In this document: piece by piece, positions 1-42,252 of the stretch
Numbering within the stretch: the stretch's first letter is position 1
Layout of the letters: each line of letters starts with the position of its first letter
Assembly (NCBI GenBank): GCA_949358305.1
Contig: OX442314.1
Span: 29,202,001 to 29,266,000, forward strand
Direction of reading: 5' to 3'
DNA from: Strigamia acuminata
Lineage: Eukaryota
Length of the DNA stretch: 64,000 nt
Made by a program: the position numbers and the translations under genes
Notes under the pieces: model-generated
The model's database searches: none
Seen by the model: the letters and a program-made list of their open reading frames with translations, nothing else
Told to the model about the DNA's origin: nothing

Positions 1-3000
1 CTTTTGGTCACGTTCGCCGATCAAAATCCCGGGCTTACGAAAGTGAGATTAATTTAAATTTAAATGTCGTCGCTAAAACTGTACCAGATTCGTAATAAAT
101 CGTAGTTTTGGTGACAGATCGAGCAGAGTTTGGACGAATTGGCCGTGCGGACGCAGAAGGAGTTGGTGCTGTTGCATAAAGACGCGTCGAACAAACCGCG
201 CAACACGATGTATTGGTTGTCGGTGCGCAATTGGTGTTGTTTTCACCATCACCTGAGGTGTCCGGCGCACATGTTCTTCAGCGATCACGAGAAAGAAGTA
301 GTGGAATTTATTTGTGTATTTTTTAATTTGTTTTAATTTATTTTTTTGTTTTTTTTTAGACTGAAATGTATTTGAGGATGTACGAAATAACTCCGAATGT
401 TAATTCGGATTTTTCTCGGCTGGCGAGGTTTTTGACGGGGACTTCGGTTGGTTTGGTGCTGGGGGGCGGCGGAGCTAGGTAATGTTTGTGGGAGTTGAGG
501 AGTTGGTGATTGATGTGGTTTGATTGCAGAGGGTCTGCGCATGTTGGTATTATACAAGCGATGCGCGAGTACAATGTGCCGATTGATATGGTTTGTGGGG
601 TCAGTATCGGGGCTTTGGTCGGTGCGATGTGGTGTATGGAACATAATGATATTCAGATGATGTTGTATAAGGCACGCCAATGGGCGAAGGTAATTTTTGA
701 ATTTTATTTTGTCAGAAATTGCAGCAGTTGCATGATTTTGATGAGAATTGAACATTTTTGTAAGAGGTTCTGAAAATTGCAACAAAATTGCACATACTAG
801 TTTAAAAATTGCACAAATTTGCTTAAAAATTGCATAAACATGCTTAAAAATTGCATAAACATGCTTAAAAATTGCATAAACATGCTTAAAAATTGCATAA
901 ACATGCTTAAAAACTGCATAAATTTGTTTAAAAAATGCACACGACGTAAATTTGTTTAAAAAATGCACACGACGTAAATTTGTTTAAAAAATGCACAAAT
1001 TTGCTTAAAAATTGCGTAAACATGCTTAAAAATTGCGTAAACATGCTTAAAAATTGCGTAAACATGCTTAAAAATTGCACTAATTTGTATAAAAATTGCA
1101 CAAATATGCTTAAAAATTGCAACAAATATGTTAAAAATTGCAATGCACATGCTTACAAATTGCACAAGTTTGCAACAAACGTGCAATAAAATTACAACCA
1201 CTTGCAACAAAATTTGCAACAATATTCAACAAAATCTGCAACAATTTGCAACAAAATACCGCAAATCTGCAACTAAATTAAAAAATTCCATCAAACGCAG
1301 ACATTATCACCATGGTTCTGGCAAATCTTCGACGTCACTTTCCCCGCCGTGGCTCTCTTGACCGGCCGAAGCTTCAACGCGACAATCCGCGAAGCATTCC
1401 ACGACACCCAAATCGAAGACCTCTGGCTGCCCTACTTTTGCGTATCTACCGACATAACCGACAGCACGTACCGTGTTCACAACCGCGGTTCCTTATGGCG
1501 ATACGTTCGCGCCAGCATGACACTAGCCGGATACCTACCCCCAATGTGCGACCCCATAGACGGCCACATGCTTCTAGACGGCGGGTACACCAACATTCTT
1601 CCAGGTGAACAAAATCCAAAGAATTACCGTCAAATTAACTCGAAATTTCGTTCCAGCCGACGTGATGCAGCACCGGGGCCGCGTACAGACAATTTTGGCC
1701 GTGGATGTGAGCAAGCACGACGAGCCGGAATTTACGAATTTTGGGGATTCGCTGTCGGGGTTTCGAGTGCTTTTTAGCTGGATAAATCCGTGGGGAAAGG
1801 AATTAAAAGTTGGTTTGTTGGTGGTGTTGGTTTTGAGTTGTTGATGATGGGATGAATTAGGTTCCGAGTCTTCCGGATCTGCAGTCTCGGCTGTCGTTGG
1901 CGAGCGGCGTGCGCATGCTGGAGAAGGTTCGGCAGGATGAGAGTTTCCATTATATTCGGCCTCCGGTTAATAATTTTGAGACTTTGGAGTTTGGGAGTTT
2001 TGAAGAGATTAAGGTTAGATGTTGTGTTGAAGATGTCTTTTTGGTAACATTAGGTGCGTTTAATCATCGAAAGACAAAATAGGTGCGTTCAATCTGCTTG
2101 TAGAAAGTCACTTAATTGCCTTAACTGCTTTTCAGAGGGCGGAAGTGACGATAATTGACCAAGTAAATTCACATAAGTGACTTTCAGGAAAATAACTGGA
2201 AAGTTCCTTTTCCACCTTTTAGAAGTCACTTACATATGCGTGCGTGTGCACATTGCGCATTGCGCATTTAACACAGCTATAGTGGCAGCCATTTTGTTCT
2301 CGATCTGACTGGCTATGAGTTTGTCACCACCAAGAAAACGAACTCGAAGTCTGGTGGTAAGTAAATGTATTCAATGAAAAGTGACTTTAAGGAAAGGAAG
2401 GAAAGTGAAAGCCACTTCTACCACAGATTGAATGCACCTATTACCTTCTCCTTAAAGAAGTGACTTAAATAAGTGATCCCGGTATTGAAATTTTTCCCAT
2501 TTTAAATTCCGCGGCTATTCATTCCGCGATTATTCAGTTTATGATATCCGGTTCAACAAGTGCTGATTGCTATTTCAACAAGTGCTGATTGGAAAAGTAA
2601 TGACCTATTGAAAAACCGTCTGTACGATCTGGTTAGGGCTGGTAACCAGGAGTTTTAGCCACAGTGAAGCAGAGATACTGTATTACTAACCCCCCCCATT
2701 TAGTCTCAAAATGTATCAAAATGGGACTTTGGCCCTTCTGGGCTGGTGGCCCTCCTGGGCCACGGCTTTACAAAAATTTTAAGTTAATTTGCCCTCCCGG
2801 TCCGACGGCCCTTTTGGGCCATGTTTAATTTTTTCAACTTTTGCAAAAATTACAATGGCCCTCCTGGGCCACCACACTTTGCCATTTATTTCCGCGGTTA
2901 TTATTTCTGCGGTTATTATGGAAACCCCGTCGTATCTTGTTTGGAGAAGTCATTTCAGACGAATAAGTCAATTTGTCTTTTGACGATTGAATACACCTCA

Positions 3001-4044: not shown

Positions 4045-4474
4045 TTCAAAAATGTAATATTTTCTTTCAAAAATGTACTATTTTTATTCAAAAATGTAAT
4101 ATTTTTATTCAAAAATCTAATATTTTTATTCAAAAATGTACTATTTTTATTCAAAAATGTACTATTTTTATTCAAAAATGTACTATTTTTATTCAAAAAT
4201 GTACTATTTTTATTCAAAAATGTACTATTTTTATTCAAAAATGTACTATTTTTATTCAAAAATGTACTATTTTTATTCAAAAATGTACTATTTTTATTCA
4301 AAAATGTACTATTTTTATTCAAAAATGTACTATTTTTATTCAAAAATGTACTATTTTTATTCAAAAATGTACTATTTTTATTCAAAAATGTACTATTTTT
4401 ATTCAAAAAATGTACTATTTTTATTCAAAAAATGTACTATTTTTATTCAAAAATCTAATATTTTCTTTCAAAAA
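4045..4474. repeat. 21-bp minisatellite (TTCAAAAATGTACTATTTTTA)n, about 20 units
   Basis: Directly visible near-perfect tandem array. Confidence 0.95.
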
Positions 4475-4968
4475 TAGATGCACGGGCTCAGCATACTCTC
4501 AATTGAACTTGGGATTACATTATGACACGGGTCTGAGCTGATCAAAACAACTTACTGGTAATTGAATATCTATATTAACCAAAATGACAAAACGCGTATT
4601 GAACAAACCTGTCTAAATTGATTAAATTGATTAAATTGACTAAAATGGTCGTGGGTGGGATGACCTTACCTATTGGGCAGTGTATGGTAGTGATGCAGGT
4701 CATCCTTGGGTGGCCAAGTGGTCACAAACTCAATATTATTTAAATTTATTTTCATATCGTGCTGCACTATAATTATCATCACCAATGTTTGTGAGAACTG
4801 ACAAGTGCACTTGCGCTTTTTATTTATTATTTATTTTCATAGAAAATGAATATTAAAATTAATGTATATTGATTGAATTTTTAATTTAAGTTTTTCATAA
4901 ACAACCGGAGACACGAGTTAAGCTAGGTGTCGAAGGTCTGTCATTACCACGGTAGAATTTGATGCAAA

Positions 4969-7900
4969 ATGACTGTGGTGAAAGCTCTCAGGCTTCGCCG
5001 AAGCCATATTCGTCGTTTTGTACGGCAAGAAATGCAAACTTCACTGTCGGGCAATGATAGTTTGAAGTTTATTGATAATGTTTTCAACAAAGAAAAGAGT
5101 AGTTTAGTCCGGGCAGTTTGGTTCGTTGTTTTGATCGTTTGTGGCACCATTTGTTGTTACCAGACAATAGAAAGAATCCAATTCTACATTGATGGACATA
5201 TCAAAGTTGAAATTGAATACGTTCCAATAGCTGAAATGACATACCCAGAATTGAGGTTCTTTGGTCTCGATACCGGATCTTTGTCCGAATACTGGGAAAA
5301 AATGCCAGAAGTTTCTTTAATGCAAGACAAACTCAAAAGATTACGTGAATGTATTTTGCCAGTGAGAAGCATGATGTCTGTAGCAGTGAAAATTGAAAAT
5401 TATGCAGATTTTTGGTTAAAAAGCAACATTTCAAGCAATTTACAGCACATCAAGATAAGACAGGTATTTAATCCTATTATTTTCGTAATACTGGATGGGA
5501 AATTATGTTGATATTATGTATTGTGACCATGAAATTGTTAGTTTTTAATGATATAAGTTGGTTTGTCTTGCTACCAATAAAATTACTGATGTCGTCATGC
5601 AGCTTTCATATTTTTCCCTTAGCAACGGTTGGCCAGGGAAAAGGGACAATAAAGAGTTGCTTCTTTGTTAGAGAGTAGCCACAAATGACCTTTCTTGTGT
5701 AAAATAAGAAGTGAAGTTAGACACTAAATCATAAGCTCTGTCTGAATTATTCCATCTTCAGGGCAAGGATGGGATGCCAAGGAATTGTTCACTGATGCTG
5801 AAGCTCAGCATCCTACAATTGTCATCATAAGTATTCAGACAATGGTAAAAATCAATGCTAAAGAAGTGTTCGTAGGACCAGAATTTTTCAATTTTATTCA
5901 TGGACATGATAGTAAATGACAATAAATTCATGGATGGACGTGATGCCATAATTTGTTTATAGTATGGGGAATGAAAATTATTCACACCCCTGCTCTTGTC
6001 CACAACTGGACTCCCACAACTGCACTACTCATACTCAACCCTCTCCTCTTCCTTACTGGGTCGGATCATCCCATGGTAGGATAGGGCTTATCTCAGGGCC
6101 ATTGGTCTGTTTATATCTGACTTGTATGATAAATTCATTAAAAGTTATAAGTCATATGTCCATACATTTAGTGAAAGCATTTTAATAAAGGGACATATAA
6201 CATGAAAGCCAAGTTCCGATCGTATCTCGGCACAAGTACCCTCTACTTGATTAGCGGCGTCAAATATGTGTAGTGTGCATTTTATTTGTATCCAGTAATC
6301 TGCTGAATTACATCTATAATCGTATAACTTTTCAGGGCAAAACTGTATTGCATGAAACAACAATTAAAGAAGGAATTTCTAGAAAGGATAACACAGAAAC
6401 TTCACTAAGCTATCGAAATGATGTAACTGGACGATCTTTGGTTTTTACTTCTGGTTAGAATTAAAAACAAAATAAAATAATTTTGAAGTTTTAATATTTT
6501 TGACTAAATCTATAGATCGAAAATTAGCACTAAATATGAAAGGAAACATAATCTTTAAAACGAATTCAACCAACTGCCAAATACCACAGATTTCGGTAAG
6601 AATCTCATCTTTTACTATTTTATTAGAGTTTGTAACTTATACTTTTATTTTTACACTCTTGAATATTAGATGAGTACGATAGTTAGCGTCATGTCTTACC
6701 AATACACTTTTTCGGTGGCGTCAGGAATTGAATCAGATATTCAATTTTTTATTCGAAGTGTAAGCTCAATTAAGTTAAAGATATTGAGAAATTTGTAGTG
6801 CATCACAAAAGTGTATAAATTAGAATATATCAGATATCAGCTTTTCCATCTTGTTTATTGTAACGGATCACCAAAAATAGTAATGCTGCATTTGTTTTTT
6901 GGTAGTATCAATTTTTAGCTTCGAGACATCCCTATTGTGAACCGGATAAGAAAAAGGAAACCCAATGCTACGAAGATTGTGTGAGGAAAAAAACTCCTCA
7001 ACGATGCAGGTCTAATTGCATGCAACATCTAAATATTGATAAACTCATAGATTTTTGGCTTACCAGGTTGCCTTTTATGTCCAACAAAAATTTGATGGAT
7101 TGCAGTTTAGAGTCAAACAAATCAATTGTGGCTGAAATGTATGAAGAAGCATTTTTCCATGAAACAACTACACTGCCATCGTTTGAATGTGGTTGCTTGA
7201 GATCTTGTGAACGGAATGTTTATTTGTTTGCATTATATTCTGATACAGGTTAAACTATAATATCTTCTATTTTTATGCATAATTCTCAAAATTATTATGT
7301 TTTAAGTTAGATTTTCAAGATGAACCAAATGGCAAAGATCTAATAAGTCTCAATTTTAAAGTATTGGAAGAATTGTTTGTCAGAATGACAGAAACCTACA
7401 TTTACACCATTCCAAACTTATTGATCGATTTTGGGGGCAATTTGGGATTCTCCTTGGGACTTTCTCTTCTGTCTTTAATTGAAATTGCACAAATGTTTCT
7501 TCTCATTTTGTCTAAATATATCAGACCTGCTCAACTTAAAGGGAGCATAAAAAAGAAAACTACCAAGTTAATGCATTTGGTCATTGACAAAAAGAAAGAT
7601 GTTTCTCAAAGTGTGATGCAGCAGCCACAAAAAAAACTTCTACTGCAATCTACATTGAATTTAATTCTAATATTTACTTCTGCAATATTGGCAGTTTATG
7701 TGAGCAAAGAAAGAATCACATTATATATGAGTGAGCCGACAAGATATGTGGTAATTATTCAAGAAAATCACACATTGTATTTACCCAATTTAATTGCGTG
7801 TAAGGATGGACCATTAATGACTAAATACAGGCGAACATATGCTAAAGAAATAGGCATGAATGAATGCAAGATTCATTTTATCAATTTAATGAACATGACT

Positions 7901-10900
7901 AAAAATCATAAAAAACCATCAATAGAAGATGTGTGGCGATTCCAAACGCCTCAGATGAATAAAGGAGCAATGGACAATGCCTATTTTGTAAGTATTCCTC
8001 TAAAGATGGGTTCACATCTGCATATACATCGCGGATATTTGCCTCAAAATTGCGATGTTACGCATGTGTGGACCCATCTTGATACACATAACGTATCGTC
8101 AACTTTCAAAAGGTTTATAAACCAAATAAAATTTTGAGCACTAACGACAAATATTAGTCAAAAGTGAATTTAGTTGTTATTGTATGGCAATAAAGGGCGC
8201 CAATATCAAGGATTGAGTACGAATGCACCCAGTATTCTGCATTCAATCACGTGATTGCGAGATTATGCATATACATTTTTACAGCAGGTCCTCAACTTTT
8301 GAACTACCGTAGTACAGTTACAAGAACTTGTTCTTCTGTCAAGGATGTACACAGTGAAAAAATTGTTCACCCAGTAATTAAGGAAAACATTTGTGAATCC
8401 TATTTTTTTTGTATGATTTTTTATCTATTATAAATTAATAAACAACAATAAGAGCGTGGGTTTTGCGCTTATCCTAGTGCCAACCACGTAAACTAATTTG
8501 TAATTGGTATCTTTGAAATTTGGATGTTCGTAACCAGGGCTGGACTGGGTACAATTTGCGGCGATCGGGGTCTTACTACTCAATATTTTGAAAAAATATC
8601 AAGTAATCACTGTTGAGATGCCGTATAGGACTTCTACTCAGCGGCCAAGTTTGTCTAGGGGAAATGATTTAACACATGAAATATAATAAAAGAAAATCGA
8701 TTTAATTGTTCTAACATACAATAAAATTATAAAGCAATGAAACGGGCAAAATGTCTTCTCGAATATACACTCACGGTTGCTCAGCTCCAAAGATGGCGTC
8801 GATGGCGTTGCGTGAGCGCGGATTTTGGCAGAGCAAGCTCAACGCCAAAATCTACCTCAAAATTTACCCTAATTTCTGTGGATCACGCTCAACACAGAAA
8901 TCACTTCTCGAGCACACAGCTTATTTTTGTGGAGCACGCTCAACACAAAGATCATCCTTGATTAACAGAGCAAGCTCAATGTTAATCCACACAGTAAATG
9001 ATGGCTTTGATCACACTTACAAGTAGACCACAGGAGTGTGTCCCTCATCACAATTGTTAGAATTATTGTTAAATGAAGTATTCATATGACCTGAGCAATG
9101 TTTCTTTCAAATGTTTAAATGCACCTCTCTCTCACATTGTTACAAACTGTTATTTATTTATGTTTTGAGTAAAAAGGTCAAGTTTAGCATTTCACTTGGT
9201 GATTAGCCTGTTCAAACCTTACTCTGGAACCCAAGTAATTTGATATCACATGACATCACAACTTTGTTCACCAACATGACTGCCTGCATGAAGACAACAA
9301 TAGTTTGTAGTGATGGTCCAGTCGTTAAGGCAATGGACCAGGAATCTTTCCACACAGGTTCAAATCCTGTTTTCTGTGAAATTTTTTACTTTTATTTTTT
9401 ATTTATTTTTAGCAGTAATGTTAATGTTTGTTATTTTATATTTGTTTTTAGAAAGTTTTAATTTAATTAATTTTAATTTTTTAACAAATATAAAATTACA
9501 AACATTAACATTACTGCTAAAAATTTTACAAAAAAATAAAAGTAAAAATTTTCACAGACAACAGGATTTGAATCTGAGTAGAAAGATTCCTGGTCCATTG
9601 CCTTAACCACTGGACCACCACGACAAACTATTGTTGGTTTCATGCAGGCAGTGATGTTGGTGAACAAAGTTGTGATGTCATATGTCATGTGATATCAAAT
9701 TACTTGGGTTCCTGAGTAAGGTTTGAACAGGCTAATCACCAAGTGTAGTGCTACACTTGACCTTTTTACTCAAAAAATCAAAAAATAGTCTTTCAACACA
9801 CAATAAAGAATCCTGTGTGTTGTAACTGTTTGTGACAATGTGAGAGAGAGGTGCATTTAAATATTTGAAAGAAACATTGCTCAGGTCATGTGAATACTTT
9901 ATTTAACAATAATTTTAACAATTGTGAGGGACACACTCCTGCGGTCTCCTTGTTAGTAATCAAAGCAAGAGGTGCTATTCTTTACAGTTGGCACATTCCA
10001 GCAATGACACTCCTCAGGAGAATAAGGTTCTGCAGAATTCTGCATATTCTGCAGAAAAATTTTCTGCAGAAAAAATTACCAAATTCTGCAGAATTCTGCA
10101 GAAAAATGTTAACCTCTTCTGCAGAATATTTTCGGCTGGCAATTTTTCTGCAGAATATTTTCAGCTGGCAATTTTTCTGCAGAATATTTTCAGCTGGCAA
10201 TTTTTCTGCAGACTTCTGCAGAGAAAAAAAATTTTCTGCAGAATTTTTTTTGCAGGCAAATTTTCTGCAGAATTCTGCAGATTTTTTTTATCTGGGTCAA
10301 TTTCTCCAAGTTATCACAGATTACACTTAGCAATTGGGCATAAGTTTGACACAGTTGTGAAGTTGTTGGAAACAGAATCAAGAGTGATTCCAAATGTGCC
10401 AAAATATCTTGGCTTACACCGAATTCTGCGCAGAAAAGCTGAGCAGAACACCAAAATACGAAGATCACACGCTGCCGCCTTTGGGTCGTGTGCAGACCGT
10501 CAGTTAGGCGCGCCCAGGTAAAAAAAATCTGCAGAATTCTGCAGAAAAATTGCCAGCCAAAAATATTCTGCAGAAAAGGTTAACATTATTCTGCAGAATT
10601 CTTCAGAATTTGGAAATTTTTTCTGCAGAAACTTTTTCTGCTGAGAATGCAGAATTCTGCAGAACCTTTTTCTCCTGGGCGTGCAGCTGGTGCAACATCA
10701 AAAAGATGCGCCTTGCACCGTGATTAGTTGAGTTTGTTGCCAAGCCACAATTTGGCATAAATTATTATTTAAGCTAAATAATACTGTGTTGGCTCTATGG
10801 TTATGTGGAATATATTCTATTCCAACTTTAAATGAAATAAAACAAGAAGTAAGTTATAGCTTTATTTATTAAACTATTTGGAAATATGGTGCTCACTCAA

Positions 10901-13759
10901 ATGTGTATATTTGAGGTCACCACAAAATTTAGTACCGAGATATCTGGATGGGTCGAGCCATGGTGGGCCCGCCGCGGGCCACCGGGCCACCGGAAAATTT
11001 CATACTAATGAAGTAGATTGTCTAGGCAGAGTGTAGAATAGAAAATAATAATAGCATAATTAAGGTAAATTCTGTTTTTTTAGGATGTTATTTTCATAGT
11101 GGGTATGGTGATCTTGATTTATTTCTGTGTTTTTGTTGTAAATAAATATCACCACTTAAAAGATAATTGTGTTATTTTATCTCACAATAGTCTGGCGTGT
11201 GCCAGACTCAGTCATGTGACTTGGGGGAGAAAACTCTCCAAGCACATTTCACCCCAAATTGATTGGGGCTTGCAGCTAATTAACCGTTTTGGTGCAACAG
11301 AATCCTTTGTTGCGCCAAACTGAGCTAATGGCGCAAGTTTACTGTGCAACTCGGAAGTGTGCCAGGCTTGGAACCCCAATTTTGACACACTATTGAATAC
11401 ACACTGAAACAACACACACCTTTCTGGTGTTCTGGCGTGTAACAGTCGTTACACGCTTTTATCTTTGTTTCCGTGACAGAGTCGCACTTTCCATTATTGT
11501 AATTCCCTTTCATTATTTATATTCATTTCATTTGTATAATTACACCCGATTAAAATACTGTTCATTTGATTTAAACCTTACTTGTGTTTGTTTCCCCAAA
11601 ACCCCTAGACAACCCACATTTGATTATAAGTCCTATAAACGGCATTCACATGCGAGTTAACTGAGCTTATTGATTTTAAGTTAGTTGAAATACCCGGATC
11701 GCAACATTAGTTACAGTTTGTGTTCTATGAACAGAACTGATTTTTAGAGAGGGTTTCAAACCCAGGTTGCACCATTTAATAAACAGAGCGAGGGTACGGT
11801 ACATACAATTGTTTAATCTACAAACGTATGTTAATTAACTGAAAGTTGATCATAAATGTTTTTGCAGGCTACTGGAGTAAGAACTAATGTAACATGGAGT
11901 AAAATAGCTATGCCAACTGGAACATGCTTTCAATCTGACATAGGTACACATCTAGACATTTTATATAAATTGTACAAGTACATAAAATATTAATGCGAGA
12001 ATTATCTTGTTGCAGCACCACGGAAATTTGCCTGAACTGCGTCACTAATATTTTTTAGTCTACAACCAGTGAAAGATCAAATATGTAATCAGCATGAGTA
12101 TGAAGTAATGTACAACTCCTTGCCTAATAAATGGAATATTGGTCAAAACAAAGTTCATGTCATGACCAATTTTCATACAATTTTTAAAAGATAACAAAAT
12201 AAAGGAATGAATCATGGTGTTAAGATATGATTCTACATTCGATCATTATTTAGCTACAATTCAGTTAAAAGAGAACTGGAAAATGTTGTTGCAATTTTAA
12301 GTAATCCGTATGGTAAAAATGACAATATAAAGATGGAATATTCAATTCAAAAAATCTGGTAGAATAGTAGCTACCAATATCTGCAATTCCAGATCTTAAT
12401 CAAACTGACTACAAGATTAAACAGATCAGTGTGCCAACTTTTCTGGCGTCATGTACGATGTCTTGATCAATTGTCTAATAGTCCTTCAGTACACATTGGT
12501 TATGGTGACTGTTCTTTATATAATTTTCACCACTGAGAGTATGTGGAAAACGTAACGTAATATACGTTTTAGGAAAAGTCATAGTTAACGGTAAACTGCT
12601 TAGATAAATGGGTTCAATGGTGTAAATAGCCCAGCATTTCTACTGTGGTTATGTTTAGTTACATGTGTAAATGTAGAAGTTGTTTGTAATTGTAATTTCT
12701 TTTGTAGATATACTTTCGACAAAATGATGCTGAATTACCATCAATACTCAGAAGTAGAAGAATTGTTGTAGATAACACCTTAGTCGTTATTACATTTAAA
12801 ATGATTAAAGTAATACATCAGATTATTACATATACACTCTTGAAACATTTGCTCTATTTTAGACCGTTCGATTAAACTTACGAGCACAACTTTGTCTTGA
12901 CCATGTCAAATACAAACGATGCCAGGAAGATTGTTACAAAAAAATGATTTATAATTTTGTTCGATGCAAGTGAGTCATAATTCTTTACAATTGAATGTGA
13001 GCATGTTGTTGCTTGGGCCCTCAAAAATCCAGGAGTTCTAGAGTTAGAAATAAAAATTCTCTACCAGAGTTCAGGGAGTGCGGACTGCACTGGCTTACAC
13101 CATCAATCAGAGTGACATTACAATGCAAAATAAGACTGTCGTGTGTCTATCTCAAATTCTATTGTTATTATTTTAGTCCTTTGTAAATTTAGAATCTAAA
13201 TTTACAAACATTACTAAAGTTTCTGTATGGGCTGGTACAAGAGGACTCGGAGGAGGTCCATGGGGAAAGTCGAAGGGGGTGACACCATGAGTTACTGCAC
13301 CGGGTTGTAATAAGTCTTTATAATTTTAGGCTACCATTTTTGCATAATGCAACAAATAATACCTGTTCAAATGCTGAGGAAGCAATTTCTTCATTACAAC
13401 TATTCATGAAGAATTCCATAAAAGTTGACGGAACGAAAGACTGTGGATGTCATCCACCTTGCGAAGAACAAATATTTGACACTTACGTTTACTTGCAACA
13501 TCCTAAAGCATTTCCACTCAAAGTTCTTGCTATAAGTCCAATCAATAATATAATTGAACAGATTACTCAAATATTATCCTACACTGCAGTTGCATTGTGT
13601 TGCGATATTGGAAATTCTTTTGCACTAATGCTCGGTCTTTCAATTCTTGCAATTCCAGAATTCTTGCAAAAGATAGTAAATCAGTTTACGGTACTTAGAA
13701 TAGATATAAAAGAACACCTCTCATCATATTCTCGAGTTAAAAAAGCCAATTATTATTAA
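4969..13759 (+). CDS. DEG/ENaC (pickpocket-like) gene copy 1 encoding two fused channel units. Probable exons: 4969-5463, 6336-6453, 6516-6595, 6670-~6759, ~6919-7009, 7067-7248, 7311-7987, 11868-11943, 12016-~12105, 12708-12809, 12863-12969, 13330-13759
   Basis: Unit 1: TM1 (RAVWFVVLIVCGTICCYQ...YPEL), thumb Cys pattern C..CYEDC..RC|RLPF..C..CGCLRSCE, TM2 DFGGNLGFSLGLSLLSLIE. Unit 2: TM1 (LILIFTSAILAVYVS...LPNLIAC), TGTCF, C..CQEDC..RC|KLPF..C..CGCHPPCE, TM2 DIGNSFALMLGLSILAIPE. The 6759/6919 junction is not phase-resolved, and an in-frame TGA at 12033 may disable unit 2. Confidence 0.8.
9004..9966. repeat. Long fold-back inverted repeat (~460 bp arms) containing two convergent tRNA-like heads
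   Basis: The arm starting GACCACAGGAGTGTGTCCCTC... is the reverse complement of ...GAGGGACACACTCCTGCGGTC; centre at ~9460-9480. Each arm has A-box-like TGGTCCAGT(C/G)GTTAAGG and B-box-like G(G/A)TTCAAATCC. Confidence 0.85.
10013..10679. mobile_element. CCCAG/CTGGG-terminated non-autonomous elements rich in TTCTGCAGAA palindromes (two inverted units, ~10013-10296 and 10513-10679)
   Basis: CAGGAGAATAAGGTTCTGCAGAATTCTGC mirrors GCAGAATTCTGCAGAACCTTTTTCTCCTGGG; inner ends TTTTTTTATCTGGG and CCCAGGTAAAAAAAATCTGCAG. Confidence 0.65.
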
Positions 13760-17070: not shown

Positions 17071-18386
17071 TCATGCAGTTTTACTCAATATGATGAAGAA
17101 TTTCGTCAGTAGATGTTGCTGTTAGTATTTAGCGGCAAATTCAACTATTTGAATAGGAATTCAAACTTGACATTAAAATCACATAAAAGTTGTGTTTTAT
17201 GTGAATTTATAGAAAGGATAAGATTTTGATATATTTATTCAAGTAAATACCGGTAAGCTTATATCTCTTTGGGTTGTTACGATAATTTTCTGAGAAATTA
17301 TCATAAACTATACTCTAACCAACTATCGATAGTGTGAGTTGAGAGTGCAGTTTTGTTGTTGTTTGTATTTGCTGTGAGTATTGGTTTGTGATTCCAGAAT
17401 TATGAGATACTCTATGTTGTGGGAACATAGATTCCAACTGCCAAAAAGTTTACTGAAATATGAATATACAAGTACTGCTATTACTTCTATGTTGCTGTTG
17501 TGGTTTTTATAACTTAATATTAATATTTTATGTGTGTACACTTTCAAACCAAAATTATAAATTCGATTTGGAAGAAACCTGTCAGGATAAAATAATAACA
17601 CGGAAAATGAGGCATCATTTTGACAAGCTAGAATTAAAAAACACAACTGTCAGAGCTAAGATCAGAAACATACCGTAATCGTTATTTCTCTGGCAACTGT
17701 ATGAGAAAACATTAGACATTAGAACGTTTGAGGCTTCAGGTACGATACTTATTAGGTATTTGGTCCACAAATACATGAGTCAGTTTGCCGAGCTGTGCAT
17801 TAAGGTAAGTGCGGTACAATATAATTTCTTCTTAACAAAATTTCTACCTACCTAATATTCACTAAATTTGGGTCATAGTTTCTCTGAATTATTTCTTACA
17901 GTTAAACAAAGTATACATTCTGACCGAAATTGGTTAAGAAAGACTTAAAAATACAAGAAAACGATACAAAAAGACAATTTAGCGCGCAATTCAAAATAGT
18001 TGGAAATACAGTACTTTAATAACAGTAATGAAGGAAGTTTATTATATTAAATAAACTCAACAATTATTATGTAAGATATTAGGTGCATTCAATTCTAAAG
18101 AGTTTTCCTCGTTTTCCCCGTTTTCGCCGTTTTCCCAGACCGGAAGTAGATGCATTTTGTTATATTTGTATGTCACCAGGCCCAATGTGCCTAAAATCCC
18201 GAATGAGGGTCTCCTACCACTAGGGGGAGTTGGGTGTATTTTTGCCGCTTGTGACCAATGACGTAACGTGAACGTACTTCCGGTCACTTGTTATTCATGA
18301 GACGGCGTGCGCTTAATCTCGTATGCGAATAAAACCTCTCATATCTTATCATCCACGGGAATCCAGTCTTTTCCAAATACAACAAA

Positions 18387-18404
18387 GGGTTATGGGTCAC
18401 AGCA
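18387..18404 (+). promoter_or_regulatory. Copia primer-binding site, imperfect complement of the anticodon-arm region of initiator tRNA-Met (half-tRNA priming type)
   Basis: GGGTTATGGGTCACAGCA versus the classic copia PBS GGTTATGGGCCCAG, immediately after the 5' LTR. Confidence 0.75.
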
Positions 18405-18538
18405 TCTAACACTGCGTGAGTTTTTGCATCTCGTATCGACTTTTCCGGGCGTTTTGACGAAGGAGTGACCACTGACCGGACCACGAGACGTTAGGCCTAA
18501 TTTCCAACGCGTGGTAGATCGCCAATCAACCTTCAAAA

Positions 18539-21500: not shown

Positions 21501-22504
21501 CGGATGAAGGCGTGTACGTGCTCAACAACGCAAGCGGGACAACAATATTGGGGATTTTCGTCGACGACATGTTGAATGTGACGTCAAATATCGGGATCGA
21601 AGATTGGACGGCGGACTTGCTGAGAAAATCGGTCGAAATCAAGGATTTGGGCACACCAACAAGAATTTTGGGACTTGATGTGGAATGCGACGTTGCAAAT
21701 GGATCGATTACTGTGTCGCAGGAAGCCTACATCGAGGAGGTGCTAGAAAGTTTCCAGATGGGACCATGCAAGCCAGTGTCGACGCCAATGGTCAAGCACG
21801 ACCAACCGAAGCCCGAGGACGACATAAATCCAGACGAGGTGCCGTACCAGAGCCTGATGGGGTCGCTAATGTACCTCGTGCAGGGAACGAGGCCCGACAT
21901 CGCTTACGCGACACACTACCTTTGCCGGTATAATCACAACCACGGGTTGTCCCACTGGAAGATGGGGAAAAGAATTCTACGCTACCTAAAAGGGACGAAA
22001 GGAAAGAAATTGCGATTCGTACGAAACGAAGATCAGATGACAGGATACGTGGACGCGAGCTGGAACTGCAACACCGAGGACGCTAAATCGACTACCGGAT
22101 TTATTTTTCTACTTGCAGGGGCCGGCGTAGTATGGAAGTCATCGAAGCAGACGTGTGTCGGGATGTCGAGCTGCGAGTCAGCATTCATCGCCATTAGCGA
22201 GGCGGTGAAAGAGGGACTTTGGCTCAAGAAATTTCTGGAGGAGCTGGGACTGAGCGAACTGATGGGCGACGCCGCGAGACTATACACCGACAGCGAATCG
22301 GCCGAGATGTTGGCGCGAGGACTGGCGCAGCATCAGCGATCGAAACACATTAATTTGCGTTATTGTTTTATAAAGGACGAGGTCGAGAACGGAGAAGTGG
22401 AGTTGCTGCACGCGGGAACCGACAAGATGGTCGCGGATATGCTGACGAAGGCGGTGACCTTGCAGAAGCAGTGCTGGTGTTCAAAGATGTGTGGACTGGA
22501 TTAA
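18539..22504 (+). CDS. Copia Gag-Pol polyprotein (Gag, CCHC knuckle, PR, IN, RT, RNase H)
   Basis: CFNCQKFGHMARDC; WNLDSGATRHM; WHNRMCH..CDEC; HMDLCGP/RSDNGGEF/QNGIAER; FVDDML; GYVDASW; IN precedes RT. Confidence 0.97.
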   Translation: MADRDAMRIEKLEDENYATWAFKMRVFLKKSEWWTVIVDEAPVNGPAAARNAWRGKDEKAINAIVQALSPAQTVYVINKDTARECWEKLEEIHRGRARQRQTILRRELTKTRWEKAETATKFLQRVESTVNQLRAVGGEISEQEVGTLIIQNLPKAYHSIQRAFDMCDEDEVTMVKLRHMIIQEESRQTGDDEVVEKLHKVNLSSRTKNNYRGGERNGDHDGKRDLKHVKCFNCQKFGHMARDCRGQKENDGRRQNNSKQTKTNARRDQQPDANAKAVKARPEFAFQVRIDQTEGRQWNLDSGATRHMTANRDFFESFVADDGSRKVTLADGRQIPIMGCGNVKFITNDADLVAKEVLYIPDLNDNLISVPKLDDAGLLVAFGSGKCTISSGDRMIMTATKIGDVYRLNVETVVTAQANTCQQSTEIDVWHNRMCHLNTATLAKMHETGAVYGLGPIQKDGRACDECAAGKMARKPFKTIVSDQSTKILELMHMDLCGPLTETIGDSRYLFLLIDDFSRKMFVYFIRSKSDVFENFKEFVAAVERETDTKLKRIRSDNGGEFVNHEMDEFMKSNGVHHELTVPFSPAQNGIAERGNRTLMEAARTMLTAAALPSKFWAEAVATAAHVRNRCSTRGNGDKIPQELWSGRKQQVGYFRIFGCAAQMWIHNSKRKKLDAKSKPVISMGYCVNRKGYRVYDPKTEKLEPTRDLKFNEARWGGEMLTSPQGSNFVSPYDAEQETGEQTTDNSEPNETDNGATEDEESTTGNGDGDDEEANENTTTRKSKRIKKKPDRLVVQPRGATYCKSVKHVEPNTVVQAQDSPEHKKWESAIQEELKSHEEFKTWRLVKKTVATNVLKSRWVFKIKKNQQGEIERYKARLVAVGCGQRPGLDYEDTHSPVMRLASLRLLLAIAVQQNWRVRQYDVKTAYLHGKLLEKVYMEQPPGNEERDREEWVCELLKAIYGLKQAGRTWYLTLDKILRKNGFRRLYADEGVYVLNNASGTTILGIFVDDMLNVTSNIGIEDWTADLLRKSVEIKDLGTPTRILGLDVECDVANGSITVSQEAYIEEVLESFQMGPCKPVSTPMVKHDQPKPEDDINPDEVPYQSLMGSLMYLVQGTRPDIAYATHYLCRYNHNHGLSHWKMGKRILRYLKGTKGKKLRFVRNEDQMTGYVDASWNCNTEDAKSTTGFIFLLAGAGVVWKSSKQTCVGMSSCESAFIAISEAVKEGLWLKKFLEELGLSELMGDAARLYTDSESAEMLARGLAQHQRSKHINLRYCFIKDEVENGEVELLHAGTDKMVADMLTKAVTLQKQCWCSKMCGLD

Positions 22505-24935: not shown

Positions 24936-24953
24936 TGGAGGTTCTACCGAGAT
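24936..24953 (+). promoter_or_regulatory. Primer-binding site complementary to tRNA-Gln 3' end
   Basis: TGGAGGTTCTACCGAGAT is one mismatch from the reverse complement of the tRNA-Gln end ATCTCGGTGGAACCT-CCA. Confidence 0.85.
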
Positions 24954-38338: not shown

Positions 38339-41300
38339 ATGACTGTGGTGAAAGCTCTTAGGCTACGTCGAAGTCATATTCGTCGTTTTGTACGGCAAGA
38401 AATGCAAACTTCCCTGTCAGGCAATGATAGTTTGAAGTTTATTGATAATGTTTTCAACAAAAATAAGAGTAGTTTAGTCCGGGCAGTTTGGTTCGTTGTT
38501 TTGATCATTTGTGGCATCATTTGTTGTTACCAGACAATAGAAAGAATCCAATTCTACATTGATGGACATATCAAAGTTGAAATTGAATATGTTCCAATAG
38601 GTGAAATGACGTTCCCAGAAATGAGGTTCTTTGGTCTCGATACCGGATCTTTGTCTGAATACTGGAAAGAAATGGAAGGTTCTTCAATGAGAAACAACCT
38701 CAAAAGATTACCCGTTGTTTGTGTTTTGCCACTGAAAGGAATGATTTCTGCAGCAGTGAAAATTGAAAATTATACAGATTTTTGGTTAAAAAGCAACATT
38801 TCAAGCAATTTACAGCACATCAAGATAAGACAGGTATTTAATCCTATTATTTTCTTAATACCTGATGGGATATTATGTTGATATTATGTATTGTCACCAC
38901 ATAAAATTGTTCTAGTAATTGTTAGCTTTTAATGATAAAAGTTATGGTTGTATTGCTACCAATGCTATTGCTACTGATGTCGTCATGCAGCTTTCACATT
39001 TTCCCCTTAGCAACGGTCGGCCAGGAAAAGAAACAATAAAAAGTTGCTTCTTTTTTATGGTATGTGGAATGAAAATTATTCACACTCCTGCTCTTGTGCA
39101 CAACTGGACTCCCTGGTGTCGTATGCATACACACGTAAATCATGAGACAGGGACTACAGTGTTAGTTGTTGGCCTTTAATCCGTTGTCTAGGGTTGGAGT
39201 TTCCCATCTACCCACGTGCTAGCGAAGGCACGCTACACTAGTGACTGACCCGTCATACACCGGGTGGGAACCCCATGGATGACGTGGTCAAACATAACAT
39301 TCTGCCGTAGTCACCTGTACGACCCAGGCAACCGCTCATGGAGGCTGTAGTGGACTCATCGTCACACTACTGAGCGTTGCAGTGGTGACTGGGGAGGAGA
39401 GCAGAGTCAGCACGGGGCACGACTGCCCTTGCTGTGTTATTCAGGAACAAAGCTGTGACAGTGGTGATCAGTGTGAGGTGTAGGCAAAGAGTGAGTACCG
39501 GTAATAAACGAATTAATTACTCAAAATTTGGCCGAAAAGTTGGCCCAATACGCATGCGTTGCGTGGCGTGTGCCCGGGCACACTTCATGCCTAGCAATGG
39601 TGCAAATTAGGGCTTCGCCTTAGCAACCCCCTAGTTTGGCAATTTGGTTGCTGCAGTTGCAACTGCTTCTGTTAAACAGCCGAAAGCATAGCAGGTGCAG
39701 AATAACTACAAGCGATGTTATTACATAATTTTAAGATCAAATATATAAATTTCTCCCAAATGTTGAAGGGACATTTGGGGTCACAACAACCTCCGTCTCG
39801 ATTGGGACCCAGCTCTCTTCTCTCTCTCTCCACACCACTCAGCTCCCTCCTTCCCTATACAGTCGACTCTGCGAGGAGGGATGACCTGAGGGCCGTTGGG
39901 TGGCGTGTGGCAGTGACGCTGGTCACCTGTGGGTGGCCAAGCGGTCACAGTTCATAAAAAGTTATAAGTCATATGTTCATACGTTTGGTGAAAGAATTTT
40001 AATAAAGGGGGGACACATAACATGAAAGCCAAGTGCAGATCGTATCTCGGTACAGGTGCCCTCTACTTGATTATCAGCGTCAAATGTATGTGTAGTGTGC
40101 ATTTTATACGTATACAGTAATCTGCTGAATTACACCTATAATCGTATAACTTTTCAGGGTAAAACTGTATTGCATGAAACAACAATTAAAGAAGGAATTT
40201 CTAGAAAGGATAACACAAACATTTCACTAAGCTATCGAAATGATGTAACTGGACGATCTTTGGTCTTTACTTCTGGTTAGAATTAAAAACAAAATAAAAT
40301 AATTTTGAGGTTTTAATATTTTTGGCTAAATCTATAGATCGAAAATTATCACTCAATATGAAATTCCACATACTCTTTAAAACGAATAGAACCAACTGTG
40401 TCAACCCACAGATTACGGTAAGAATCTCATCCTTTACTATTTTATTGGAGTTTGTAACTTATACTTTTATTTTTACACTTTTGAATATTAGATGAGTAGG
40501 ATAGTTAGCGTCATGTCTTACCAATACACTTTGTCGGTGGCGTCAGGAATTGAATCAGATGTTCAATTTTTTATTCGAAGTGTAAGCTCAATTACGTTAA
40601 AGATATTGAGAAATTTGTAGTGCATCACAAAAGTGTATAAGTTTGAATATATCAGATATCAGCTTTTCAATCTTGTTTATTGTGATGGATCACCAAAAAT
40701 AGTAATGCTGCATTTGTTTTTTGGTAGTATCAATTTTTAGCTTCGAGACATCCCTATTGTGAACCAGATAAGAAAAAGGAAACCCAATGCTACGAAGATT
40801 GTGTGAGGAAAAAAACTCCTCAACGATGCAGGTCTAATTGCATGCAACATCTAAATATTGTTAAACTCATAGATTTTTGGCTTACCAGGTTGCCTTTTAT
40901 GTCCAACAAAAATTTGATGGATTGCAGTTTAGAGTCAAACAAATCAATTGTGGCTGAAATGTATGAAGAAGCATTTTTCCATGAAACAACTACACTGCCA
41001 TCGTTTGAATGTGGTTGCTTGAGATCTTGTGAACGGAATGTTTATTTGTTTGCATTATATTCTGATACAGGTTAAACTATAATATCTTATATTTTTATGC
41101 ATAATTCTCAAAATTATTATGTTTTAAGTTAGATTTTCAAGATGAACCAAATGGCAAAGATCTAATAAGTCTCAATCTAAAAGTGTTGGAAGAATTGTTT
41201 GTCAGAATGACAGAAACCTACATTTACACCATTCCAAACTTATTGATCGATTTTGGGGGCAATTTGGGATTCTCCTTGGGACTTTCTCTTCTGTCTTTAA

Positions 41301-41809
41301 TTGAAATTGCACAAATGTTTCTTCTCATTTTGTCTAAATATATCAGACCTGCTCAACTTAAAGGGAGCATAAAAAAGAAAACTACCAAGTTAATGCATTT
41401 GGTCATTGACAAAAAGAAAGATGTTTCTCAAAGTGTGATGCAGCAGCCACAAAAAAAACTTCTACTGCAATCTACATTGAATTTAATTCTAATATTTACT
41501 TCTGCAATATTGGCAGTTTATGTGAGCAAAGAAAGAATCACATTATATATGAGTGAGCCGACAAGATATGTGGTAATTATTCAAGAAAATCACACATTGT
41601 ATTTACCCAATTTAATTGCGTGTAAGGATGGACCATTAATGACTAAATACAGGCGAACATATGCTAAAGAAATAGGCATGATTGAATGCAAGATTCATTT
41701 TATCAATTTAATGAACATGACTAAAAATCATAAAAAACCATCAATAGAAGATGTGTGGCGATTCCAAACGCCTCAGATGAATAAAGGAGCAATGGACAAT
41801 GCCTATTTT
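38339..41809 (+). CDS. DEG/ENaC double-unit gene copy 2 (5' exons through the TM2-linker-TM1 exon; remainder displaced by nested insertions beyond 42253)
   Basis: Colinear near-identical paralogue of 4969-7987, introns included; homology runs from CACGAGTTAAGCTAG (4912/38283) to TTATCTAT (8428/42250). Confidence 0.85.
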
Positions 41810-42252
41810 GTAAGTATTCCTCTAAAAATGGGTTCACATCTGCATATACATCGCGGATACTTGCCTCAAAATTGCGATGTTACGCATGTGTGGACCCATC
41901 TTGATACACATAATAACGTATCGTCAACTTACAAAAGGTTTATAAACCAAATAAAATTTTGAGCACTAACGACAAATATTAGTCAAAAGTGAATTTAGTT
42001 GTTATTGTATGGCAATAAAGGGCGCCAATATCAAGGATTGAGTACGAATGCACCCAGTATTCTGCATCCAATCACATTATTGCGAGATTATGCATATACA
42101 TGTATACAGCAGGTCCTCAACTTTTGAACTACCGTAGTACAGTTACAAGAACTTGTTCTTCTGTCAAGGATGTACACAGTGAAAAAATTGTTCACCCCAG
42201 TAAGGAAAACATTTTTGAATCCTATTTTTTTTCTATGATTTTTTATCTATAA

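What the first reader, a model, noticed from the sequence alone, without database searches (positions are those of the whole stretch)
4969..13759. Natural concatemer DEG/ENaC: two channel subunits fused in one reading frame
Seen: exon 7311-7987 encodes TM2 of a DEG/ENaC unit (DFGGNLGFSLGLSLLSLIE), a ~40 aa Lys-rich linker with no stop, then TM1 and the post-TM1 motif of a second unit (LILIFTSAILAVYV...YMSEPT...LPNLIAC). That unit has its own Cys-rich thumb and TM2 at 13340-13759. The same fusion exon is intact in the paralogue at ~41133-41809. Established: DEG/ENaC/ASIC/ppk subunits normally have two TM helices and assemble as trimers. Inference: a 4-TM tandem dimer would fix stoichiometry (e.g. 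dimer plus one free subunit) and may be an undescribed channel architecture.
Basis: partly seen in the sequence, partly recalled or inferred. Interest (0 to 1): 0.85.

Follow-up and report, generated by a model that had tools for sequence, protein, structure and literature searches.

The report
Two sodium-channel subunits fused in one gene
An intact 12-exon gene joins two complete DEG/ENaC (ENaC/ASIC-type) channel subunits in one reading frame, a layout shared by about twenty centipede relatives, and it is predicted to make a four-helix double subunit for a channel type that normally assembles from three separate subunits.

Summary
Exon 7311-7987 (acceptor AG, donor GTAAGT) reads without a stop through the second membrane helix (TM2) of one DEG/ENaC unit, a 39-46 codon Lys-rich linker, and the first helix (TM1) of a second unit. 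With canonical splice sites the locus gives 12 exons and 891 codons with one terminal stop. The protein has four hydrophobic helices. It aligns end to end with an 805-aa double-unit protein of the centipede Strigamia maritima.

In the representatives search, 21 of 32 hits carry the same TM2-linker-TM1 junction in one matched stretch. Of the 20 looked up, 19 are S. maritima proteins.

Related copies in genomic contigs differ mostly at synonymous sites (23 of the 40 differences shown, against about 20% expected). They show no frame-shifting indel and no stop.

In trees, first units group with first units and second units with second units. This fits one old fusion followed by gene-family expansion.

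An AlphaFold model of the S. maritima relative has two complete DEG/ENaC folds.

No RNA data were available, so translation as one chain and the channel's stoichiometry remain inferred. I found no paper describing natural tandem DEG/ENaC subunits. Verdict: real, a new variant of a known family, moderately high interest.

The parts
4969..5463 (+). Exon 1: ATG, about 44-aa cytoplasmic N-terminus, TM1 of unit 1 (model aa 45-67), start of ectodomain
   Evidence: ORF and donor CAG|gtattt. Pfam ASC positions 14-69: 21.7 bits here, 25.3 bits in copy 2. Hydropathy peak.
6336..6453 (+). Exon 2 of unit 1
   Evidence: Acceptor ttttcag|, donor CTG|gttaga. In phase with its neighbours. No indel against copy 2.
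6516..6595 (+). Exon 3 of unit 1
   Evidence: Acceptor ctatag|, donor TCG|gtaaga, phases fit.
6670..6759 (+). Exon 4 of unit 1
   Evidence: Acceptor atattag|, donor AGT|gtaagc, phases fit.
6906..7248 (+). Exon 5: Cys-rich part of the unit 1 ectodomain
   Evidence: Matches P0001 aa 1-47 at 60% identity. Donor CAG|gttaaa leaves one base, completed by exon 6.
7311..7987 (+). Exon 6, the fusion exon: end of unit 1 ectodomain, TM2 of unit 1, linker, TM1 and first ectodomain part of unit 2
7415..7522 (+). TM2 of unit 1 with pore motif DFGGNLGFSLGLS (approximate bounds)
   Evidence: Pfam ASC 401-453. Hydropathy peak at model aa 424-446. Invariant columns D, G, G, N, G in 21 relatives.
7523..7660 (+). 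Lys-rich cytoplasmic linker, 46 codons, no stop (approximate bounds)
   Evidence: 500 of 20000 shuffles stop-free. Variable in length and sequence among relatives but always open.
7661..7717 (+). Core of TM1 of unit 2 (approximate bounds)
   Evidence: Hydropathy peak at model aa 486-504. Aligned with TM1' of P0001 and P0002.
8218..8346 (+). Exon 7 of unit 2 (least certain exon: weak acceptor; donors at 8316, 8346 and 8373 are all in phase)
   Evidence: Only in-phase acceptor after 7987. Lies inside the single blastp HSP with P0001. Kept in copy 2.
11868..11943 (+). Exon 8 of unit 2
   Evidence: tblastn with P0001 aa 305-327, 57% identity. Acceptor tttttgcag|.
12076..12104 (+). Exon 9 of unit 2 (29 nt)
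   Evidence: Matches P0001 DQIC..EYE. The phase fits only with this acceptor. Donor GAA|gtaatg.
12708..12809 (+). Exon 10 of unit 2
   Evidence: Local match to P0002. Acceptor ttttgtag|, donor AAA|gtaata.
12863..12969 (+). Exon 11 of unit 2 (Cys-rich)
   Evidence: Local match to the Cys-rich part of P0002. Acceptor tattttag|, donor CAA|gtgagt.
13330..13759 (+). Exon 12: end of unit 2 ectodomain, TM2 of unit 2 (about 13598-13678, motif DIGNSFALMLGLS), stop at 13757-13759
   Evidence: Pfam ASC 331-453, 29.5 bits. tblastn with P0002 aa 677-782. Hydropathy peak at aa 839-865.
38339..42171 (+). Second copy of the 5' part of the gene. Exons: 38339-38833, 40158-40275, 40338-40417, 40492-40581, 40728-41070, 41133-41809, and the exon-7 counterpart 42043-42171. 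No counterpart of exons 8-12 lies in the window.
   Evidence: Same splice sites. 601 codons from exons 1-6 without a stop. 562 identical of 607 aligned columns. Similarity ends at 42250, where GC-rich inserted DNA begins.

Best explanation
The stretch 4969-13759 is one 12-exon gene whose 891-codon open reading frame joins two complete DEG/ENaC subunits through a single exon, and it is predicted to be translated as one four-helix chain that likely supplies two of the three subunit positions of a trimeric cation channel.

Shown here:
- The exon structure and the open frame.
- Four hydrophobic helices, in the order TM1, ectodomain, TM2, cytoplasmic linker, TM1', ectodomain', TM2'.
- The same layout in about twenty diverged relatives.
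- Coding constraint across the junction.

Inferred:
- The topology. Both ends of the linker are cytoplasmic, so the fusion needs no change of topology.
- Both units line a pore. Unit 1 keeps the family's D-x-G-G-N..G-x-S motif in TM2. Unit 2 has a one-residue-shorter variant.
- The third position is filled either by a separate single subunit (a fixed 2+1 heterotrimer) or by a unit of another tandem chain (three chains building two tethered pores).

The two halves are only about 22% identical to each other and form separate lineages. They are therefore probably non-equivalent subunit types, in the way ENaC alpha differs from beta and gamma.
For: 1. Gene model. All 12 exons have AG/GT sites and matching phases. 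The CDS is 2676 nt with its only stop at the end, and there are four Kyte-Doolittle peaks.

2. Collinearity. One blastp HSP links model aa 38-855 to aa 42-782 of P0002 (T1ITL7_STRMM, 805 aa), E 1.4e-35. The model is 54% identical to P0001 over aa 319-681.

3. Junction. It lies inside one exon. It is 63% identical to P0001 over 224 residues, with two in-frame 2-residue gaps in the linker.

4. Family. 21 of 32 hits in the representatives search match the query from TM2 through TM1' in one stretch. 20 of these 21 were looked up: 19 are S. maritima proteins and one is an unnamed ENA contig. The spacing from TM2 to post-TM1' is 79-105 residues in all 21.

5. Constraint. Genomic contigs at 80% likeness or more show 141 differences, of which 40 are listed. 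Of the 40, 23 are synonymous, 17 non-synonymous and none a stop, and 24 fall at codon position 3. The random expectation is 20% synonymous, giving binomial P = 2.4e-7. The only indels are +1 and -1, four bases apart in one contig.

6. Trees. In the careful tree the 11 first units lie on one side of a branch (ultrafast bootstrap 74, SH-aLRT 92). 6 of 7 second units form a clade (90/94). The labels need the minimum of 2 changes, which 0 of 200 shuffles reach (similar).

7. Fold. An AlphaFold2 model of P0002 has pLDDT 71 and pTM 0.66. Residues 437-794 match BRTNaC1 8ymr_A (Z 20.4, rmsd 5.8, 332 aligned). Residues 57-398 match human ASIC1a 7cft_A (Z 14.8, rmsd 6.3, 319 aligned).

8. Feasibility. 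Engineered three-subunit ASIC1a concatemers give currents in oocytes (PMC5449180, passages read).
Against: - No transcript or protein evidence exists for this gene or, as far as I could see, for its relatives. The S. maritima proteins are automatic gene models.
- The N-terminal part of unit 2 alone gets no Pfam ASC hit in the window and no PDB hit by sequence.
- Between the two in-window copies constraint is weak: dN/dS is about 0.6 for exons 2-6 and 0.5 for exon 1. The high identity around the fusion exon extends into the flanking introns.
- Exon 7 has a poor acceptor.
- The 40 differences analysed are the best-supported of 141, not a random sample. The contigs may come from the same individual as the assembly.
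- Tree supports are below 95, branches are long, and one second unit (P0009_C) is unresolved.
- In a second group of S. maritima proteins (P0003, P0004, P0010, P0012) first and second units are nearly identical and intermixed. That could reflect merged gene models of tandem genes.
- Neither unit has the pre-TM1 His-Gly motif (sequence; motif recalled).
Confidence: 0.75

Rival explanations
1. There are two transcription units. Unit 1 and unit 2 would be made as separate two-helix subunits. Unit 2 would start from an internal promoter and the ATG at 7572. Unit 1 would end through an unseen alternative splice or 3' end. The shared open frame would then be incidental, or the fused mRNA only a minor isoform.
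For: - An in-frame ATG (the Met of ..KLMHLV..) lies in the linker.
- Single-unit DEG/ENaC channels of centipedes (BRTNaC1, 431 aa; PDPNaC1, 421 aa) are homotrimers of separate subunits (PMC9974506 and PMC12714832, passages read).
- No RNA data were available to exclude this.
Against: - There is no stop codon for unit 1 anywhere between TM2 and the end of unit 2.
- The linker frame stays open in 21 diverged relatives despite length changes of up to 26 residues.
- The Met is not kept in P0001.
- No AATAAA lies on the + strand between 7311 and 7957.
- Chance openness of the linker is about 2.5% for one sequence.
Confidence: 0.12
2. The fused frame is a decaying or non-functional member of a multi-copy family lying in transposon-rich DNA. 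It would be open only because it is young.
For: - The locus sits among LTR retrotransposons, and its long intron 7 holds high-copy repeats.
- Copy 2 lacks exons 8-12 within the window, and foreign GC-rich DNA begins at 42250.
- dN/dS between the two copies is 0.5-0.6.
Against: - Copy 1 has all 12 exons in phase with a single terminal stop.
- Differences among related genomic copies are strongly biased to synonymous sites, with no stop and no net frameshift.
- Relatives down to 21% identity keep the full architecture.
Confidence: 0.08
3. The fusion is an assembly artefact: two neighbouring genes wrongly joined in the assembly.
For: The region is repeat-rich and exists in two similar copies, and such regions invite mis-assembly.
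Against: - Contigs of two public DNA runs lie across the TM2-linker part and across the TM1' part of the exon, and every bin of the exon is covered.
- The same junction is present in copy 2.
- It is also present in independently assembled S. maritima gene models and in an unnamed ENA contig.
Confidence: 0.03

Closest known systems
Strigamia maritima 'Uncharacterized proteins', for example T1ITL7 (P0002, 805 aa), T1ITA9 (P0001, 346-aa fragment), T1IPM9, T1JD34, T1JEH2
   Same: They share the TM1-ectodomain-TM2-linker-TM1'-ectodomain'-TM2' layout. They are collinear with the window's gene over both units. First and second units pair up across paralogues.
   Different: They are only 21-64% identical to the window's gene. 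They are automatic gene models with no name, no described function and, in my searches, no paper.
[quoted passage not shown]
   Same: They are the best solved relatives by sequence (P0002 against 8ymr, E 2.6e-12) and by fold (Z 20.4 for the second unit of the P0002 model). Unit size is similar, about 420-450 aa.
   Different: Each is a single two-helix subunit of 431 or 421 aa. PDPNaC1 is described as a homotrimer. There is no fusion.
Engineered ASIC1a concatemers (Lynagh et al. 2017, PMC5449180)
   Same: Subunits are linked covalently, C-terminus of one to N-terminus of the next, and still give proton-gated currents (passages read).
   Different: They are man-made, hold three identical subunits per chain and so fill a whole trimer. 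The natural chain here holds two unlike units.
Two-pore-domain K+ channels (K2P) and two-pore channels (TPC); recalled, not tested here
   Same: They are natural tandem fusions of two pore-forming units in one chain.
   Different: In those families two chains complete a four-fold pore. In a three-fold DEG/ENaC pore two units per chain cannot tile evenly, so a third partner or a higher-order assembly is needed.

Membership tests
DEG/ENaC/ASIC superfamily (Pfam ASC, PF00858) | Unit 1: match to the ASC profile above the curated cut-off (23.6 bits) | tested here: met
   The TM2 part of exon 6 scores 33.9 bits, and the whole ORF 38.5 bits. Exon 1 matches positions 14-69 at 21.7 bits in copy 1 (below the cut-off) and 25.3 bits in copy 2 (above it).
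DEG/ENaC/ASIC superfamily (Pfam ASC, PF00858) | Unit 2, C-terminal part: match to the ASC profile above the cut-off | tested here: met
   ORF 13283-13759 scores 29.5 bits at positions 331-453 of 455.
DEG/ENaC/ASIC superfamily (Pfam ASC, PF00858) | Unit 2, N-terminal part (TM1 and post-TM1): match to the ASC profile | tested here: inconclusive
   There is no hit for 7541-7987 alone, even at E 10. The equivalent part of P0001 matches positions 16-78 at 14.6 bits, below the cut-off. It is collinear with TM1' of P0002, whose model folds as a DEG/ENaC subunit.
DEG/ENaC/ASIC superfamily (Pfam ASC, PF00858) | Two membrane helices flanking a large Cys-rich ectodomain, in each unit | tested here: met
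   Four hydropathy peaks lie at model aa 45-67, 424-446, 486-504 and 839-865. Cys-rich exons 5, 11 and 12 are seen directly in the sequence.
DEG/ENaC/ASIC superfamily (Pfam ASC, PF00858) | TM2 pore motif (G-x-S 'GAS belt' after D-x-G-G; motif name recalled) | tested here: met
   Unit 1 has DFGGNLGFSLGLS, and D, G, G, N, G are invariant in 21 relatives. Unit 2 has the shorter variant DIGNSFALMLGLS. In second units of relatives the S is sometimes C or T.
DEG/ENaC/ASIC superfamily (Pfam ASC, PF00858) | Pre-TM1 His-Gly motif (recalled; not universal in the family) | tested here: not met
   No HG is found in the 44 residues before TM1 of unit 1 or in the linker before TM1 of unit 2 (sequences).
DEG/ENaC/ASIC superfamily (Pfam ASC, PF00858) | Subunit fold (palm, beta-ball, thumb, two TM helices) | tested here: met
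   Tested on the relative P0002, not on the window's spliced protein, which the folding tool does not accept. Both halves of the model match solved subunits (Z 20.4 and 14.8). The window's gene is collinear with P0002.
DEG/ENaC/ASIC superfamily (Pfam ASC, PF00858) | Trimeric assembly and cation conduction | not testable with these tools
   This needs expression, electrophysiology and structure work.
Centipede tandem double-unit DEG/ENaC proteins (T1ITL7-like; unnamed group) | TM2 of one unit, a cytoplasmic linker and TM1 of a second unit in one chain | tested here: met
Centipede tandem double-unit DEG/ENaC proteins (T1ITL7-like; unnamed group) | The first unit groups with first units and the second with second units | tested here: met
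   The window's N unit lies in the N-unit side (74/92) and its C unit in the C-unit clade (90/94). Support is moderate and branches are long.

The most novel reading that the evidence does not exclude
Centipedes evolved a covalently linked two-subunit DEG/ENaC chain with non-equivalent halves and multiplied it into a gene family. Two does not divide three. These chains must therefore either recruit a separate third subunit (a hard-wired 2+1 heterotrimer) or assemble three chains into two tethered pores. Neither quaternary architecture has been described for any trimeric ion channel.
Probability: 0.5. Interest if true: 0.8.

Novelty: new variant of a known kind. Interest (0 to 1): 0.65.

Why it matters
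DEG/ENaC, ASIC and pickpocket channels are trimers of separate two-helix subunits. Which subunits combine, and in what order, is a recurring open problem that laboratories attack with artificial concatemers.

A natural, conserved and multiplied two-subunit chain would show that evolution has fixed subunit neighbourhood in this family. It also raises a concrete structural puzzle: how does a two-unit chain fill a three-fold pore?

Centipede DEG/ENaC channels are already known as sensory receptors for heat and acid in the antenna. These genes are therefore candidates for a large, unexplored set of sensory channels.

The finding is directly testable by cDNA cloning, oocyte expression with and without single-unit partners, and cryo-EM.

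Tried and rejected
- Whole genome: none is held for this window, so paralogues and single-unit partners could not be searched in the genome itself.
- RNA evidence: no RNA holder was listed. The two runs found (X1, X2) cover the introns too and so behave as DNA. They may come from the sample behind the assembly.
- The search for homologous proteins, 'longer', with the window ORF found nothing. The 'near' search and a 'longer' search with P0001 found the relatives.
- Sequence search of the unit 2 N-terminal part against solved structures gave only a chance hit.
- The ESM Atlas gave ASC clusters only.
- Earlier findings of this scan held nothing for this genome or sequence. A word search gave unrelated protist and invertebrate DEG/ENaC notes.
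- Six literature searches found no description of natural tandem DEG/ENaC subunits. 'ASC' is ambiguous as a search term, and subscription journals are not covered. Supplements were not read.
- A candidate exon with ..LLVFND.. at 5472-5678 was rejected. The two copies differ there by indels of 14, 1, 3 and 1 nt.
- A longer version of exon 9 was rejected for lack of any in-frame donor.
- The AATAAA scan says little: the motif is common in this AT-rich DNA.
- Complex prediction was not run. A tandem chain plus a third unit exceeds 1000 residues. A two-unit job would pass by likeness to solved trimers without telling 2+1 from twin pores.
- One contig joins 7494 to 7762, skipping 267 nt (89 codons). 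I did not interpret it.

Full report
What is there

The window is AT-rich eukaryotic DNA (31-37% GC around the finding). No whole genome is held for it.

On the + strand, exon 7311-7987 is bounded by the acceptor ..gttttaagttAG| and the donor |GTAAGT. It takes one base from exon 6906-7248. From 7313 it then reads 225 codons with no stop, while the other two frames have 24 and 14 stops.

The exon encodes three things in order.
- Residues 7-59 match the last 53 positions of Pfam ASC, which is TM2 with DFGGNLGFSLGLS (33.9 bits, cut-off 23.6).
- A Lys-rich stretch follows (7523-7660). Only 500 of 20000 shuffles of its letters stay open.
- Then come a second hydrophobic helix and a post-TM1 segment.

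The paralogous exon at 41133-41809 differs at 4 nucleotides and 2 residues. Only the start of the last exon needs moving, from 13340 to 13330.

Gene model

I used two relatives as guides (below) and the second copy as a check. This gave 12 exons: 4969-5463, 6336-6453, 6516-6595, 6670-6759, 6906-7248, 7311-7987, 8218-8346, 11868-11943, 12076-12104, 12708-12809, 12863-12969 and 13330-13759.

All have AG and GT sites and the phases fit. The CDS is 2676 nt and the only stop is the last codon.

Exon 7 is the weak point. Its acceptor lacks a pyrimidine tract, and three donors (8316, 8346, 8373) are in phase.

The 891-aa product has four Kyte-Doolittle peaks, at aa 45-67, 424-446, 486-504 and 839-865. 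This is the pattern TM1, ectodomain, TM2, linker, TM1', ectodomain', TM2'. The two units are about 22% identical to each other over 151 residues, so this is not a recent internal duplication.

The second copy (38339-42171) keeps the same splice sites. It is open over the 601 codons of exons 1-6. No counterpart of exons 8-12 lies in the window, and similarity ends at 42250, where GC-rich DNA begins.

Relatives

A word-based search found one near-length relative, P0001. This is UniRef T1ITA9 of the centipede Strigamia maritima, a 346-aa fragment. It is 63% identical over 224 residues that run from the Cys-rich end of unit 1 through TM2, the linker and TM1' into unit 2. It has two in-frame 2-residue gaps in the linker.

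With P0001 as query, a longer relative appeared: P0002 (T1ITL7, 805 aa). It has four Pfam ASC stretches (E 9e-32), and its first half alone scores E 6e-20. The window's spliced model aligns with it in one HSP from aa 38 to aa 855 (E 1.4e-35).

The exhaustive phmmer search of 1.84 billion representatives gave 32 hits at E 0.001 or better.
- 21 of the 32 match the query in one stretch that runs from TM2 to beyond TM1'.
- 20 of those 21 were looked up. 19 are S. maritima proteins and one is an unnamed ENA contig. P0028 was not looked up.
- The full-length ones measure 754-936 aa. In a simple pattern scan, seven proteins show two TM2 motifs 290-430 residues apart.
- In an alignment of the 21, D, G, G, N and G of TM2 and a Pro and a Cys after TM1' are invariant. 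The stretch between them varies from 79 to 105 residues, is basic, and is poorly conserved in sequence. That is what one expects of a cytoplasmic loop kept only for length and charge.
- The other 11 hits match TM2 only. Two of them (P0024, P0027) are not ASC proteins at all.

From these hits I infer that the window comes from a centipede or a close relative. This is inference from best hits only.

Constraint

Two public runs hold the exon. They also cover the introns, so they behave as DNA.

Laid on the exon at 80% likeness or more, 163 and 116 contig pieces fit, with many variant contigs. Several related copies or alleles therefore exist in that DNA.
- Of 141 differences, the tool lists the 40 best supported. 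Of these, 23 are synonymous, 17 non-synonymous and none creates a stop. 24 lie at codon position 3.
- Random single changes in this exon would be 20% synonymous, 74.5% non-synonymous and 5.3% stops.
- The excess of synonymous changes has binomial P = 2.4e-7, or 2.7e-4 if the expectation were 30%.
- The pattern holds on both sides: 7 synonymous to 5 non-synonymous in the TM2 part and 14 to 10 in the unit 2 part. The linker has 2 and 2.
- The only indels are +1 and -1, four bases apart in one contig.

Against this, the two in-window copies give dN/dS of only 0.5-0.6. The near-identity around the fusion exon also extends into the introns, so that pair says little.

One fusion or many

I cut the double proteins into first (N) and second (C) units.

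In a quick tree of 32 rows, the window's subfamily splits into an N-unit clade (SH-aLRT 92) and a C-unit clade (93). One stray C unit, P0009_C, falls outside.

A careful tree had 23 rows. It left out most of a second group, two of the three units of P0016, and P0025. In it:
- the 11 N units lie on one side of a branch (ultrafast bootstrap 74, SH-aLRT 92; 79% of bootstrap trees);
- 6 of 7 C units form a clade (90/94);
- the labels need the minimum of 2 changes, which none of 200 shuffles reach.

This fits one old fusion, or one old gene pair, followed by duplication of the whole tandem gene. Support is moderate and branches are long.

The second S. maritima group (P0003, P0004, P0010, P0012) behaves differently. 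Its N and C units are nearly identical and intermixed. That means recent duplication, gene conversion or merged gene models, and I could not tell which without their DNA.

C units of the window's subfamily have a TM2 motif one residue shorter (D-I-G-N...) and a less conserved G-x-S position. The two halves therefore look like distinct subunit types.

Fold

The spliced window protein cannot be handed to the folding tool, so I folded P0002 with the 21-row alignment. Mean pLDDT was 71.1 and pTM 0.66.

Foldseek ranks BRTNaC1, ASIC1 and PDPNaC1 first. The second-look aligner shows that both halves are complete subunits:
- residues 437-794 against BRTNaC1 8ymr_A: Z 20.4, rmsd 5.8, 332 aligned;
- residues 446-785 against PDPNaC1 9jf7_A: Z 20.4, rmsd 3.7, 314 aligned;
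- residues 57-398 against human ASIC1a 7cft_A: Z 14.8, rmsd 6.3, 319 aligned.

How it most likely works

Shown: one open frame, two full units and four helices.

Inferred from the established topology of the family (both termini cytoplasmic): the linker is a cytoplasmic tether from TM2 to TM1'. The fusion therefore needs no change of topology.

Laboratory concatemers of ASIC1a work (PMC5449180, passages read), so covalent linkage as such is compatible with function.

A chain of two units cannot fill a three-fold pore evenly. There are two options.
- A separate third subunit joins, giving a 2+1 heterotrimer with fixed neighbours.
- Three chains build two tethered trimers.

The evidence here does not decide between them. 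I lean to 2+1 only because the two units are unlike each other.

Characterised centipede family members are sensory channels of the antenna. BRTNaC1 is heat-activated (PMC9974506) and PDPNaC1 is proton-gated and a homotrimer (PMC12714832); I read passages of both. A sensory role is a reasonable guess, not a result.

Rivals
- Separate transcripts for the two units remain possible, because no RNA could be examined. This would leave unit 1 without any stop codon. It also does not explain why the linker frame is kept open in 21 diverged relatives.
- A decaying pseudogene is unlikely for copy 1 but plausible for the truncated copy 2.
- Mis-assembly is unlikely. The junction recurs in copy 2, in public contigs and in independently assembled relatives.

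Novelty

Six full-text searches found no paper on natural tandem DEG/ENaC subunits. The two papers on centipede channels describe single-unit proteins.

The architecture is present but unremarked in UniProt. What this window adds is that the junction lies inside one exon. It therefore cannot be an artefact of gene prediction that splices neighbouring genes together.

I rate it a new variant of a known kind, with interest 0.65.

Noticed in passing
window 4045-4475: A 21-nt tandem repeat of 20.4 copies with 96% matches lies about 500 nt upstream of the gene's ATG. It is open in both strands' frames as a 7-residue repeat.
   Followed up: partly
window 18138-22902: A Ty1/copia-type LTR retrotransposon with a 1328-aa open gag-pol frame at 18518-22504. 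It carries RVT_2, rve and a copia-type gag. It is flanked by direct repeats of about 230-250 nt at 18138-18384 and 22656-22902 that are 96-99.6% identical, depending on the span compared.
   Followed up: partly
window 23249-37039: A Ty3/gypsy-type LTR element with 1685-nt LTRs that are 99.9% identical (23249-24933 and 35355-37039). It has a 1370-aa pol frame at 27796-31908. ORFs of 707 and 632 aa have no Pfam hit. It lies between the two channel-gene copies.
   Followed up: partly
window 42250-46300: A block of 52-61% GC sits inside 32%-GC DNA. It starts exactly where copy 2 of the channel gene stops resembling copy 1. It holds a 930-aa open frame on the minus strand (43360-46152) with no Pfam family at E 1e-5.
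   Followed up: partly
window 46306-58991: A pair of 1915-nt repeats, 99.8% identical (46306-48220 and 57077-58991), encloses a 3258-nt tandem duplication that is 99.9% identical (48905-52162 and 52160-55417). It looks like another LTR-bounded element with an internal duplication.
   Followed up: no
window 60187-63999 (minus strand): A gypsy-type pol frame of 1270 aa (RVT_1, RNase H, integrase) runs off the window's end.
   Followed up: no
window 1277-1777: An ORF with a weak patatin-like phospholipase match (E 1.5e-6, 29 bits). It may be an exon of a neighbouring gene.
   Followed up: no
protein P0016 (Polypedilum vanderplanki KAG5672929.1, 1460 aa) and P0015 (Halocaridina rubra KAK7028032.1, 1244 aa): Predicted proteins of a midge and a shrimp hold several ASC units. 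P0016 has six hydrophobic peaks and three full-length ASC matches (E 1.5e-178). Its three units are close paralogues. This could be a whole trimer in one chain, or three tandem genes merged by the gene predictor.
   Followed up: partly
window 7494-7762: One contig in each of the two DNA runs joins 7494 to 7762, skipping 267 nt (89 codons, in frame). That stretch is the linker and TM1 of unit 2. It may be a variant copy or an assembly-graph artefact.
   Followed up: no
window 9176-9843: This stretch of intron 7 draws summed contig depths about 50 times those of neighbouring single-copy stretches. It is therefore a very high-copy repeat of this genome.
   Followed up: no
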